Source: Octopus vulgaris
Lineage: Eukaryota
Direction: 5' to 3'
DNA: 64,000 nt
NCBI GenBank assembly: GCA_951406725.2
Contig: OX597821.1
Coordinates: 75,702,001 to 75,766,000, forward strand
The position numbers and the translations under genes were made by a program. Shown in pieces: positions 9,105 to 60,968 of this stretch. The notes below the pieces were generated by a model. The model searched no databases. It was not told the DNA's origin and worked only from the letters and a program-made list of their open reading frames with translations. Numbering within the stretch: the stretch's first letter is position 1; every line of letters starts with the position of its first letter.

Positions 9105-9857
9105 TAATGGAGCAGACCCAAAATGCCGATTCTGCAACGACATGATTGAAACAGTGGACCACCTAATCTCTGGATGTAAAGTCTTAGCACCAGTGGAGTA
9201 TAAATTAAGACATGACAGAGTTGGCTAATATCTCCACTGGCTAATAAGTCGGCATTACAATATCAAAACTGCCGACAAGTGGTATAATCACCACCCTGAG
9301 GCTGTAACTGAAAGAGAAAATGTAACCATTCTGTGGGACTTTCCAGTACATACAGACCGAACCATCAAGGCCAATAAACCATATATTGTTGTGAAAGACC
9401 AAAACAATAAAGTTTGCTTATTGATCGACATGAGCATCCCCTGTGATCATAATATCTCAGCGAAAGAGTTTGACAAGCTCAGAAAATATAAAGACCTACT
9501 CATTGAAATTGAGAAAATGTGGCATCTCAAGGCGGTTACAATACCAGTGATCGTAGGAGCACTAGGAATGATCAAGAAGGGAACCGAAAATTATATGAGA
9601 ATGATCCCTGGCTTACCATCCCTGCAAGAAGTGCAAAAGATTGTCTTAACTGGTACATCACACGTATTGAGAAGAGCATTGTCGATGTGAGAACTGTTGC
9701 TGCTCATGTATTTTAATTTAACTTAAAAAAAAAAAATGAACGAACTACTGAGTTTGGTTTAATGGCCTACCAATGTATACTATGAGTTTCTTTGCCCTAG
9801 GAGTCGGGAAGACACTCGGCAAGAAATGGAAGCAAATTTGAAAGAAGAAAAAAAAAA

Positions 9858-21407: not shown

Positions 21408-21798
21408 CTACATGTACACACACATATATGCCCATATACACACCTACGCATTGATATATATTTATATCAACATGCACACATACACACACATATATACATA
21501 TATATGCAAGTATAGAAGTATTCAAAACATGTCACCACGCGTATAGATATCTACACTCATTATGCAGTCATATATGTGAAATAAAGACTGATAACGTGTT
21601 TTATTTTCGGAGTTAAATCTATGTAAAATATACACACATGAAAGAAAATGTAACTCGAAATCTGCTGAAGATGCAAAACTGCTTAGCATAGTTTATTATA
21701 GCAATGGGTGTTGACATCTACAACAGCCATAGCAAAAGTTGTATACCAACTTATATCATAGGCACAAGGCCATAAAGTTTATTAAATTAGTGTATATT

Positions 21799-22122
21799 AA
21801 AGACTCCGCCAGTTACGACGATGAGGGTCCCAGCTGATACGATCAACGGAACAGCTTGCTCGTGAAATTAACGTGCAAATGGCTGAGCATTCCACAGACA
21901 CGTGTACCCTTAACGTAGTTCTCGGGGATAATCAGCGTGACACAGAGAGTGACAAGGCTGACCCTTTGAAATACAAGTACAACTCATTTTTGCCAGCTGA
22001 ATGGACTGGAGCAACGTGAAATAAAGTGTCTTGCTCAAAGACACAACGCGTCGCTGGGAATCGAACTCACAACCTTACGATCATGAGCCGAATGCCCTAA
22101 CCACTAAGCCACGCGCCCTCCC
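21799..22122 (-). mobile_element. tRNA-derived SINE, group V, full length with 14-bp TSD
   Basis: Minus strand has box A TGGCTTAGTGG and box B GTTCGATTCCC, then GTGTCTTTGAGCAAGACAC. TSD AAATTAGTGTATAT at 21784-21797 and 22123-22136. Confidence 0.9.
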
Positions 22123-22337
22123 AAATTAGTGTATATATATGTGAGCGGGTTGACGATATTGCATCATTATCTCATTACGAGAGACAAAACACGGAAAGAT
22201 AAGTAGATTAACAGTCAGAATTTGAAGTAAAACAATTACGGCGTGTAACTAAATGTTCCAAGGTATTCCGTCCTCGACCCTCAACTCATTCTGTTAGTCC
22301 ACGGTCTTTTGTTATTTTTGGCTCGCCTCGAACGTAT

Positions 22338-22672
<335 letters not shown>

Positions 22673-22696
22673 ACACAAAGAACAACAGATGCATAG

Positions 22697-23063
22697 TTGG
22701 AGTAAAGATTGTTTGCCAATATAACATGGCAGTCCTGGTTTAAGACGAATGTTGCTGTAATTTAGCCCCAGGAGACATTGTCTCCAGCTGGCTATACGAT
22801 CTGTGTTCTTATATTTTCGAAAAAGGGAATTTAGTATCACCACTCAGCTCAAAACAATATCTGTGTATCGCAATTTCCGGGTTATTTCCCTTCATCAGCA
22901 CAAAATAGCAACAGTATTTTGGAGTAAATATTTTTGCCAATATAACATAGCAGTCGTGGTTTAGGACGATGTCTGCTGGGGCTCATTTACAGCAACATTC
23001 TTCCTAAACCAGCACTGCCATATTATGTTGGCAAACAATCTTTACTCCAAAGTACTGTTGCTG
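22697..23063 (-). mobile_element. Hammerhead-containing element: partial tandem (222-bp period) plus inverted segment, Penelope/retrozyme-like
   Basis: TTGGAGTAAA.ATT.TTTGCCAATATAACAT occurs at 22697 and 22919, with an inverted copy at ~22975-23063. A hammerhead lies between the direct copies. Confidence 0.75.
22862..22902 (-). ncRNA. Minimal type I hammerhead ribozyme motif
   Basis: Minus strand TGTG-CTGATGA-A-GGG(AAATAA)CCC-G-GAAA-TTGCG-ATA-CACA: canonical core, stem I TGTG/CACA, near-palindromic stem III AUUGCGAU, AUA triplet. Confidence 0.75.
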
Positions 23064-23556
23064 AATATCTCTCATTGTGAGATTTATAAATAGTAATTTT
23101 ATAAGATGGATAGTTGGTTCCTACAGATGTTTCAAACGTGCTTTTTATTTTTGAATAGAAGTGTTGCATCATGGTAAAAAAGCCCATTTTCATCACGTTA
23201 ATGCATGAAACAGTTAAAAATTTTGATTATCTCAATAACAAGTATAAAGTGCCATATGACTCTACTGACCAAAATGCGGTCAGGATTCGCTTGAATCCGT
23301 GGGGCAGCTGATGATGGAGGTGTGTTGGATTGCTGTTATGGCTGTTATTGTAAATGTGGAATACTTTGAGATATATATGCTTGTGTGTGTATCTCTGCGT
23401 TTGTTCCCCACACCACTGTAACTTAGCGGTAAGGCAAAGGGGAATGTTAGACTAACCACCAGCGTTATAAAATAAATTCTGGGGACGATTCACTAAATAT
23501 TATTCACAGTACCCCATCCTAGCTGCTGTCTAAAGAGTGAAACAAAAAGGAGATAA

Positions 23557-58550: not shown

Positions 58551-60611
58551 ACTTTTTTTTTTCTTCTTTCAAATTTTCTTCCATTTCTTGCCGAGTGTCT
58601 TCCCGACTCCTAGGGCAAAGAAACTCATAGTGTATATTGGTAGGCCATTAAACCAAACTCAGTAGTTCGTTCATTTTTTTTTTTTTTTTTAAAGTTAAAT
58701 TAAAATACATGAGCAGCAACAGTTCTCACATCGACAATGCTCTTCTCAATACGTGTGATGTACCAGTTAAGACAATCTTTTGCACTTCTTGCAGGGATGG
58801 TAAGCCAGGGATCATTCTCATATAATTTTCGGTTCCCTTCTTGATCATTCCTAGTGCTCCTACGATCACTGGTATTGTAACCGCCTTGAGATGCCACATT
58901 TTCTCAATTTCAATGAGTAGGTCTTTATATTTTCTGAGCTTGTCAAACTCTTTCGCTGAGATATTATGATCACAGGGGATGCTCATGTCGATCAATAAGC
59001 AAACTTTATTGTTTTGGTCTTTCACAACAATATCTGGTTTATTGGCCTTGATGGTTCGGTCTGTATGTACTGGAAAGTCCCACAGAATGGTTACATTTTC
59101 TCCTTCAGTTACAGCCTCAGGGTGGTGATTATACCACTTGTCGGCAGTTTTGATATTGTAATGCCGACTTATTAGCCAGTGGAGATATTGGCCAACTCTG
59201 TCATGTCTTAATTTATACTCCACTGGTGCTAAGACTTTACATCCAGAGATTAGGTGGTCCACTGTGCTAAGACTTTACATCCAGAGGTTAGGTGGTCCAC
59301 TGTTTCAATCATGTCGTTGCAGAATCGGCATTTTGGGTCTGCTCCATTTTTCATCACATTGGCCTGGTAGTTCCGGGTTGATAGGCTTTGGTCTTGAGCA
59401 GCCCGGATGAAACCTTCGCTCTCTGCTTTTAGCCCTGAGCTCCGCAGCCACTGATGGGTTTGCTTCTGGTCAACATCAGCTTGTTTGCTGCGGGTCACAT
59501 ATTTGCCGTGCAGAGGTTTCTCCTCCCACCTATCAGCCAATTGCTCGTGCGCTTTTTTCATTGCCATCATTTTCACCTTCTTTGCAACAATAGTTGCCGT
59601 ACTTCCCTCGGGTTGTTCAGTTTGGGTATCCTGCACGAGATCAATAGCAAATTTTTTGCTTTCCTTGATGATAGAATGAAGCTTCTTTCGTCTCTCGTGA
59701 TTTTCCACGAGCTTTAGCATCCAGTCATTCGATATTTCGAGATATTTGGCCAGTCCAATTGTGGTTGTTTTGTAAGCTACTTCAAATTGGATCAGGCCTC
59801 GACCTCCTTGGGCTCTGGGAAGGTAAAGGCGATCTACGTCTGCCTTTGGGTGGTGCATCCTATTACAACTCAGCAGCTTGCGTATTTTTCTATCTATATT
59901 CTTTACTTCACTCATATTCCAGTTCAACACATTGTAGCTATAAGTAACAACTGGAACTGCTAGGGAATTTATAGCTAACACCTTGTTACATGCATTTAGT
60001 TCAGATTTCAGGACTGCACGAACTCTCCTATAACATTCCTTCCTGATTATCTCTTTCATGCTTGCATGCTGAATACCAGAGCCTTCATTTATCCCTAAAT
60101 ATTTGTATGTTTGTTCTTGCTCAAGCTCTCTTATGACTGTGTCAACATCTAACACGACTGAATTTGTGGTATTCACTTTTCCTTTCTGGAAAGTGGCCTT
60201 GGCACACTTCTCAAGTCCAAACTCCATCCCGATGTCATCGCTGAATGATTTCACGGTGCGCAATAGGCCTTCAAGTTCATTATTGTCTTTACCATAAAGT
60301 TTTAAGTCATCCATATAAAATAGATGGCTTATTTTTTTATTGGCAATTTTATACCCATACCCTGTTCTGTTTAATTCACTTGTAAGGGTATTAGGGCTAT
60401 GCAGAATATTAAAGGTGAAAGTGAGTCACCTTGAAAAATTCCACAGTTGATGTTTATATTTTCTGAGGCAAGTACTCCATTAGAGTGGTATAATTGGAGA
60501 TTCGTATTCCACAACGACATATTGTGCTTCAGGAAGTTTGAAATCACAGGGGAAATTTTGAAGATGTCCAGCGATCTCAAGATCCATGGATGCGGTATAC
60601 TGTCGAAGGCC

Positions 60612-60612
<1 letters not shown>
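58551..60612 (-). mobile_element. R4/Dong-type non-LTR retrotransposon family A, 2.06-kb 5'-truncated copy in (TAA)n
   Basis: RT motifs KAFDS, GIFQGDSLSP, YMDDLKLY and YKYLG, a CCHC knuckle, and a PDIVV...IDMSIP...KY endonuclease. (TTA)n arrays at 58530-58550 and 60615-60697. Confidence 0.95.
58726..60612 (-). pseudogene. RT plus restriction-like endonuclease ORF, broken by two frameshifts
   Basis: Track ORFs 60371-60580, 59250-60314 and 58726-59262 join into one protein once a 1-bp deletion (~60386) and a 38-bp duplication (59226-59301) are corrected. Confidence 0.92.
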
Positions 60613-60672
<60 letters not shown>

Positions 60673-60707
60673 CATTATTATTATTATTATTATTATAACA
60701 TCGAAAG

Positions 60708-60836
60708 ATACCTTAGGAATGAGAACCCAGGTTCGAAATTTCCCCCAAGACACCTGAAGAAGGCTGAAACGTTGTGTTAACAACAAACAAGATGGGGACA
60801 AATATGCGTCAAATGTAAATAATGTAAATAATGTAA
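60708..60836 (+). mobile_element. Family H1 element, hammerhead stem II collapsed
   Basis: GACAC-CTGAAGA-A-GGCT-GAAACGTT-GTGTT (60749-60778), with the same 5' boundary and (GTAAATAAT)n tail as the other copies. Confidence 0.85.
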
Positions 60837-60968
60837 CTATGTGTATATTGATTTCTTGATTTAGCAGGCCATAGATTTTAAAGATATACTGTAGTTTATA
60901 TATTTAATGAAAGAATAAGATGAAATAAATTTATTTCATCGATTCCGATAAGTCGAATATCGAATTGG

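What the first reader, a model, noticed from the sequence alone, without database searches (positions are those of the whole stretch)
22697..23063. Second hammerhead family: 222-nt repeat unit in partial tandem plus inversion (retrozyme-like)
Seen: direct repeat with 222-bp period (22697 and 22919), a canonical CUGAUGA/GAAA hammerhead on the minus strand between them (22862-22902), then an inverted copy of the unit. It lies just beyond the (TA)n of a SINE whose 5' half is missing, and has no similarity to H1 outside the core. Inference: a more-than-one-unit copy is what reverse transcription of a ~222-nt circular or multimeric RNA, or of a Penelope pseudo-LTR, would leave. The size fits known metazoan non-LTR retrozymes.
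Basis: partly seen in the sequence, partly recalled or inferred. Interest (0 to 1): 0.75.

Follow-up and report, generated by a model that had tools for sequence, protein, structure and literature searches.

The report
Clipped Penelope-pasted hammerhead retrozyme copy
This is one damaged copy of an abundant, protein-less 352-base repeat that carries a predicted self-cutting RNA motif, a known kind of genomic parasite; the 222-base unit first proposed is an accident of this copy, and the fixed way the family's copies end suggests they were likely pasted in by Penelope-type retrotransposon enzymes.

Summary
The hammerhead motif, a partial direct repeat and the inversion are real. The 222-nt unit is not: the family monomer is 352 nt, and this copy alone skips 124 nt (junction unique in the genome). 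The true insertion is 22701-23103: two arms head to head, flanked by a 14-bp target duplication (13/14). Across 135 insertions, 205 of 243 arms end at two fixed sites about 55 nt apart; 87 of 89 classifiable head-to-head pairs use one of each; 60 of 87 carry 11-17-bp duplications (control 1 of 261). These are Penelope-like-element footprints on an ORF-less tandem hammerhead unit: a non-LTR retrozyme, likely mobilised by Penelope enzymes. No coding partner was found. A sister family keeps the hammerhead by compensatory changes. This copy has one ribozyme and lacks the putative promoter, so it likely releases no circle. RNA-seq depth follows genomic truncation, not an abundant circle (inconclusive). 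An L1/Tx1-like LINE inserts at one fixed site ahead of the ribozyme in sister families. The scan's earlier notes report both patterns on other DNA of this and other genomes. New member of a known kind.

The parts
22687..22700 (+). Target-site duplication, left copy (14 bp; its last 4 bases also fit the element's short 3' end)
   Evidence: 13 of 14 identical to 23104-23117; family duplications mostly 12-15 bp
22701..22907 (-). Main arm: monomer positions 1 to about 212-216, ending at the short (S) 3' end; 93% to the family majority sequence, one 5-nt deletion
22861..22903 (-). Type I hammerhead motif: 5-bp stem I, CUGAUGA core, A.G mismatch plus 3-bp stem II with 6-nt loop, GAAA, 2-bp stem III with near-palindromic tetraloop, AUA triplet; predicted cut 22866/22865. 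Two changes from the family (outer stem I C-G to U.G; loop 3 C to U)
   Evidence: covariation with sister family B
22907..22969 (-). Short same-strand segment, monomer positions about 165-228, joined to position 1 across a 124-nt gap (1-nt microhomology at 22907); source of the apparent 222-nt period
   Evidence: junction unique in genome
22965..23103 (+). Inverted arm, monomer positions 131 to about 266-269, ending at the long (tailed, T) 3' end; no hammerhead; joined to the other arm through a 5-nt microhomology (22965-22969)
23104..23117 (+). Target-site duplication, right copy

Best explanation
The locus is a 403-bp, head-to-head, target-duplicated insertion of an ORF-less 352-nt hammerhead repeat (a non-LTR retrozyme), likely written into the genome by the reverse transcriptase and GIY-YIG endonuclease of a Penelope-like element acting in trans. 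Shown: 352-nt tandem unit, two fixed 3' ends, scattered 5' ends, one short and one long end per inverted pair, 12-15-bp duplications, read-through across the predicted cut site. Inferred: the endonuclease nicks both strands about 13 bp apart; each nick primes reverse transcription, one at the short site (monomer about 215) and one at the long site (about 268), on a circular or uncut multimeric RNA; the two incomplete cDNAs join, often by short complementarity. Inferred: in this copy a template jump or later deletion removed positions 229-352 (TATA-like box and the 5' strand of the long stem), leaving one hammerhead, so the copy is likely dead as a source of circles.
For: 205 of 243 arms end in two windows covering 27 of 352 positions. 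107 of 135 insertions are head-to-head; 87 have one S and one T end, 1 SS, 1 TT, 18 with one unclassified end (binomial p 6e-24 on 89); in the 100 insertions found by pattern only: 80 head-to-head, 64 S+T, 1 SS, 1 TT. Duplications of 11 bp or more (1 mismatch allowed): 60 of 87 vs 1 of 261 mismatched-flank controls. Contigs from four runs with four organism labels show loose ends piled at 22701 and 23100. 154 of 243 arms cross the cut site, 41 exceed one monomer and continue into the previous unit; 5' ends at the cut site are rare, most apparent ones being stem self-complementarity. The layout matches that described for endonuclease-bearing Penelope-like elements: inverted 5'-truncated copy, tail at one end, 8-10-bp duplications (PMC8557442, PMC3846280 passages), and two internal start sites with both strands cut in vitro (PMC11167929). 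Intact RT+GIY-YIG ORFs exist in the genome. Sister family B (357 nt, 57% identical) keeps the hammerhead with double changes in 5 of 6 stem I pairs and 1 of 2 stem III pairs and 24 of 71 pairs overall; monomer folds score z -7.7 and -7.0 against 60 shuffles. The two arms of one insertion share non-CpG derived variants 3 times more often than arms of different insertions (5.7 vs 1.8 per kb).
Against: No coding Penelope-like element sharing this sequence was found: 80 loci around GIY-YIG hits held only unlinked family copies, and flanks of 135 insertions shared no coding sequence, so the partner is inferred from footprints. The tail is about 55 nt, longer than the 30-40 nt described. Only 4 of 25 single-orientation copies have a duplication of 11 bp or more. 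The covariation rests on two families, i.e. few independent events; inside family A changes are mostly CpG decay and only 63 of 146 hammerheads keep core and all stems. Three RNA-seq runs gave depth rising about 20-fold from monomer 273-300 to 190-215, both orientations alike, 70-77% of reads running on into other sequence and no end pile-up: this looks like read-through of genomic copies, not an abundant circle. No contig bridged this locus's own junctions. Shared variants between arms could also come from gene conversion.
Confidence: 0.85

Rival explanations
1. The locus records reverse transcription of a distinct 222-nt circular or multimeric hammerhead RNA.
For: Spacing of 221-222 between partial repeats; size within the published retrozyme range (PMC7229834).
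Against: Junction found once in 2.8 Gb; none of the other 39 best-scored candidates matched the first 11 bases of the 222-nt query; tandem copies have a 350-353 period.
Confidence: 0.02
2. The copies are only clipped pseudo-LTR ends of a coding Penelope-like element not yet found; the 352-nt tandem arises from serial short insertions.
For: All insertion footprints are Penelope-type; retrozymes resemble pLTRs in frogs (bioRxiv 10.64898/2026.07.22.740005); only a small part of the genome's Penelope families was sampled.
Against: All 41 arms longer than 352 nt run into the previous monomer; no shared coding flank among 135 insertions; three ORFs next to copies had no Pfam hit; at least three sister families share the same closed 350-360-nt design.
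Confidence: 0.08
3. Sub-rival on the template (compatible with the main reading): the copied RNA was a linear, uncut read-through of a tandem master locus, and the hammerhead plays no part in insertion.
For: No arm crosses more than three cut sites; no circle signal in RNA-seq; uncut RNA was the main substrate for a Penelope enzyme in vitro (PMC11167929); weak stems II and III predict slow monomer cleavage.
Against: The hammerhead and a long self-paired fold are kept by compensation between families; tandem units in one arm share derived variants at 10 per kb (28 pairs); published retrozymes of this size are circles (PMC7229834). None of these separates circle from multimer.
Confidence: 0.45
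4. A fold-back or MITE-like DNA transposon with long terminal inverted repeats.
For: Most insertions look like large inverted repeats with a target duplication.
Against: The two ends differ by about 55 nt in 87 of 89 pairs, inner junctions are scattered, 28 of 135 insertions have one orientation, duplication length varies.
Confidence: 0.02

Closest known systems
Metazoan non-LTR retrozymes (Cervera and de la Pena 2020, PMC7229834; mussel 350-390-bp repeats, axolotl 330/350-bp repeats)
   Same: Non-coding tandem unit of about 350 nt, one type I hammerhead per unit with short stem III and palindromic tetraloop, GC under 50%, long target duplications, strongly self-paired predicted fold; a mismatch at the base of stem II is also described for axolotl HHR_Amex2 (U.U).
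   Different: Mostly 5'-truncated head-to-head pairs rather than long arrays (maximum three units seen); two fixed 3' ends with a one-short-one-long rule, not reported in the parts read; circle and cleavage not shown here.
Endonuclease-bearing Penelope-like elements (PMC8557442, PMC3846280, PMC11167929)
   Same: Inverted 5'-truncated partner, tail at one end, target duplication, hammerhead upstream of two reverse-transcription start sites.
   Different: No ORF; tail about 55 nt instead of 30-40; no coding element with this sequence found.
Retrozymes as non-autonomous Penelope derivatives (Li, Clavereau, Pollet 2026, bioRxiv 10.64898/2026.07.22.740005)
   Same: Same conclusion about the partner.
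   Different: That paper argues from co-occurrence and pLTR homology, mainly in vertebrates; here the evidence is insertion anatomy. By its definition (two consecutive units with hammerheads) this copy is an inactive monomer derivative.
Target-specific Tx1-clade LINEs (Tx1L in Tx1D, Tx1-Mar, Keno; PMC4494074 passages)
   Same: For the side finding only: a LINE inserting at one site of another repeat, with tandem arrays.
   Different: The target is a hammerhead retrozyme; not among the targets in the passages read. Clade not tested by a tree.

Membership tests
non-LTR retrozyme | Type I hammerhead in each unit | tested here: met
   107 of 146 hammerhead-spanning copies keep the core; compensatory changes with family B; Rfam did not detect it
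non-LTR retrozyme | Tandem units of 150-450 bp | tested here: met
   352-nt monomer; 9 of 243 arms cross two or three cut sites
non-LTR retrozyme | No coding capacity, no LTR structure | tested here: met
   No shared coding flank; primer-binding site and polypurine tract not searched
non-LTR retrozyme | GC under 50% and target duplications longer than 4 bp | tested here: met
   GC 41%; duplications mostly 12-15 bp
non-LTR retrozyme | Highly self-paired monomer | tested here: met
   Predicted only: circular fold z -7.7, 64% paired
non-LTR retrozyme | Expressed as circular and linear monomer RNA | tested here: inconclusive
   Three RNA-seq runs (6% read each, selection and species match unknown) show a truncation-like gradient and no end pile-up
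non-LTR retrozyme | Self-cleavage in vitro | not testable with these tools
   Needs transcription assay
active retrozyme locus (Li et al. 2026 definition) | Two consecutive units with complete hammerheads | tested here: not met
   This copy has one hammerhead
autonomous Penelope-like element | RT plus GIY-YIG ORF | tested here: not met
   None in or joined to 135 insertions
non-autonomous Penelope-like element | Inverted 5'-truncated partner, tail at one end, target duplication | tested here: met
non-autonomous Penelope-like element | 3' sequence shared with an autonomous family | tested here: inconclusive
   No match among 80 GIY-YIG loci dominated by two families
Tx1 clade (for the LINE side finding) | RT phylogeny within Tx1 | not tested
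   Only zf-RVT (E 2.3e-6) and weak zf-CCHC hits

The most novel reading that the evidence does not exclude
A group of sister retrozymes is copied from 350-360-nt RNA circles by a dimeric Penelope enzyme whose two active sites must start at two different RNA sites, one per nicked DNA strand (87 of 89 pairs), and these ribozyme parasites are themselves parasitised by a LINE that lands about 25 nt ahead of the hammerhead core, borrowing their promoter and their ribozyme as its 3'-end cutter.
Probability: 0.3. Interest if true: 0.68.

Novelty: new member of a known kind. Interest (0 to 1): 0.36.

Why it matters
The locus itself is a dead copy. The family matters because the partner of animal retrozymes has been proposed from co-occurrence and homology, while here an ORF-less hammerhead unit carries countable Penelope footprints, and the strict one-short-one-long end rule is a testable prediction for how a Penelope enzyme uses its two start sites. 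The qualitative rule (tail at one end) is already in print, and earlier notes of this scan report the same on other families.

Tried and rejected
Rfam scan: no hammerhead model at E<=1. Isolated fold of the motif: no better than shuffles. 5' ends at the cut site: looked enriched but mostly came from self-complementarity of the long stem; rejected. The 5'-end peak at monomer 307 has the same cause. ORFs beside L016, L017, L018: no Pfam hit (3 of the 12 long frames listed were scanned). Family copies near Penelope ORFs in L188 and L192 have unrelated sequence in between; taken as chance neighbours. Search for a coding partner: 80 loci, none. No RNA holder listed on record in the run search; contig run X1 is a guessed RNA run and was not used. 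Contigs did not bridge this locus, which proves nothing. The first idea that the shared upstream sequence at monomer 336 was the partner's 3' UTR was rejected: it is a LINE flanked by both halves of the monomer. A link between this copy's deletion end (position 352/1) and the LINE target edge was considered; one case, not pursued. Paper searches returned no description of this family, of the end-pairing count, or of a LINE targeting retrozymes; Repbase/Dfam and subscription journals were not searchable, bioRxiv supplements were closed and the PMC7229834 supplement was not opened, so the family may already be catalogued.

Full report
Observation. Alone the motif is unimpressive: no Rfam hit, fold z about 0, and an A.G mismatch where stem II starts.

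Family. The window lies in a 2.8-Gb animal genome; that it is octopus-like is my inference from the repeat landscape and from the scan's notes, not a tool result. The 222-nt query had 2521 first-look candidates, 40 scored; every other top hit matched from base 12 or later. Exact patterns gave 245 and 532 hits with 0 in controls. From 60 loci a 352-nt monomer converged. I gathered 153 loci: 30 best hits, 60 first pattern hits, 3 junction hits, 54 further pattern hits and 6 hand-picked inverted pairs; 16 were duplicates and 2 had no family sequence, leaving 135 insertions. All were selected for containing the hammerhead or the stretch just behind it, so short 3' stubs are under-sampled.

This copy. 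Read on the minus strand it is: inverted arm (monomer 131 to about 268), short segment (about 165-228), main arm (1-216). The jump from 228 to 1 skips 124 nt; with two small deletions this gives 222. The junction pattern has one exact hit, the window itself; its two 2-mismatch hits are not family members. A 14-bp duplication (13/14) brackets 22701-23103. The copy holds one hammerhead and has lost the TATA-like box and the 5' strand of the long stem.

Insertion footprints. 205 of 243 arms end at monomer 209-220 or 263-277; 5' ends are scattered. 107 of 135 insertions are head-to-head; with wide windows 87 pair a short with a long end, 1 is short-short, 1 long-long, 18 have an unclassified end; with narrow windows 75, 1, 1. 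Duplications of 11 bp or more occur in 60 of 87 such pairs against 1 of 261 controls, but in only 4 of 25 single-orientation copies. Contigs of four runs with four organism labels have loose ends piled at the same two sites. 154 arms cross the predicted cut, 41 exceed a monomer, 9 cross two or three cut sites; ends exactly at the cut are rare. So the template was continuous across the cut site: a circle or an uncut multimer. Arms of one insertion share derived variants three times more often than arms of different insertions (a test prompted by note e1-8662707); this fits one template or one source locus, and also gene conversion. The window's own two arms share none over 68 sites.

Ribozyme evidence. 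A 64% hit near a Penelope ORF led to sister family B, 357 nt, 57% identical, also tandem and head-to-head. On 7 A and 7 B genomic copies 93% of hammerhead cells pair, with double changes in 5 of 6 stem I pairs and 1 of 2 stem III pairs; slid controls give 6-57%. These are differences between two families, so few independent events. The base of stem II is a mismatch in both (A.G, C.A). A third family C has the same design. Within A, decay is mostly at CpG (24% vs 2-3%), and 63 of 146 hammerheads keep core and stems: most copies are neutral relics, median 93% to the majority sequence.

Partner. The genome has many intact RT+GIY-YIG ORFs, but none of 80 such loci shares the monomer as its own end, and family flanks share no coding sequence. 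The partner is inferred.

Expression. Three raw RNA-seq runs of one organism label (about 6% read each; 1954, 1630, 1560 reads laid at 85% likeness) show both orientations alike, depth rising about 20-fold towards monomer 190-215, 70-77% of reads running on into other sequence, and no end pile-up. That resembles read-through of genomic copies. Library selection and species match are unknown, so circles are neither shown nor excluded.

Side finding. Several copies begin at monomer 335-337 behind the 3' end of a LINE; 23 such exact junctions exist, all at one spacing. In L243, L244, L245, L248, L285 and L297 the LINE is flanked by both halves of the monomer, with a duplication of about 16 nt in those not eroded. 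Of the 30 best LINE 3' ends (one is the query), 22 are followed by a hammerhead core 24-38 nt later (17 at 31-32 nt; 6 family A, 14 family C, 2 others), 7 by another LINE start, 1 unclear. Pieces carry zf-RVT and weak zf-CCHC hits; Tx1 is a resemblance, not tested by a tree. The site lies about 25 nt behind a TATA-like box; promoter borrowing is inference. The window copy lacks this site.

Literature seen. bioRxiv 10.64898/2026.07.22.740005 parts 1-3 of 5 (supplements closed); PMC7229834 parts 2-4 of 6; PMC4209133 part 1 of 4; PMC11167929 parts 1-2 of 4; passages of PMC8557442, PMC3846280, PMC8869645, PMC4640811, PMC4494074. They describe retrozymes of this size, Penelope as likely partner, the inverted copy and one-sided tail, two start sites in vitro, and Tx1 LINEs targeting other repeats. 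Eight searches found no account of this family. Earlier notes of this scan (unchecked AI notes) report Penelope-type ends on retrozymes and LINEs at retrozyme start sites on other DNA of this and other genomes; my readings were noted before I saw them, and they are not counted as support.

Verdict. A real but dead copy of a 352-nt non-LTR retrozyme family with Penelope-type insertion anatomy; the 222-nt unit is a local accident. New member of a known kind; interest 0.36.

Noticed in passing
L243:7516-9268, L244, L245, L248, L285, L297 and others: An L1/Tx1-like LINE, often as a 1.75-kb one-gene derivative, sits at a fixed site about 25 nt ahead of the hammerhead core in families A and C, and in tandem arrays at that site; 22 of its 30 best 3' ends are followed by a hammerhead core.
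   Followed up: partly
L204-L228 (family B); downstream parts of L258-L283 (family C); L320:12-740 and L172:22-273: Sister retrozyme families of 350-360 nt with the same fold and two 3' ends; L320 and L172 look like further, more distant relatives.
   Followed up: partly
monomer positions 17 and 30; families A, B, C: The first pair of stem II is a mismatch in A (A.G) and B (C.A) and U.U or A-U in C, possibly a kept brake on monomer cleavage.
   Followed up: partly
L010, L050, L062, L080, L105; L074, L099, L127: Inner junctions of inverted pairs recur at short complementary spots of the predicted stem around the hammerhead.
   Followed up: no
L188:3082-5480, L305-L334: A very young, high-copy Penelope-like family (775-aa ORF, 99% identical hits) with two 3' ends about 30 nt apart next to (TA)n; its hammerhead-like core reads CCGAAGA.
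   Followed up: no
   Followed up: no
window about 22335-22672 and 21790-22125: Half of a common SINE-like repeat ending in (CA)n(TA)n just left of the insertion, and a tRNA-like SINE on the minus strand (tRNA model 27.8 bits at 22047-22116) with a 14-nt direct repeat at 21784/22123.
   Followed up: no
window 58726-60900 (minus) and 9229-9690: Pieces of a LINE reverse transcriptase with a restriction-like endonuclease C-terminus (from translations; naming from recall).
   Followed up: no
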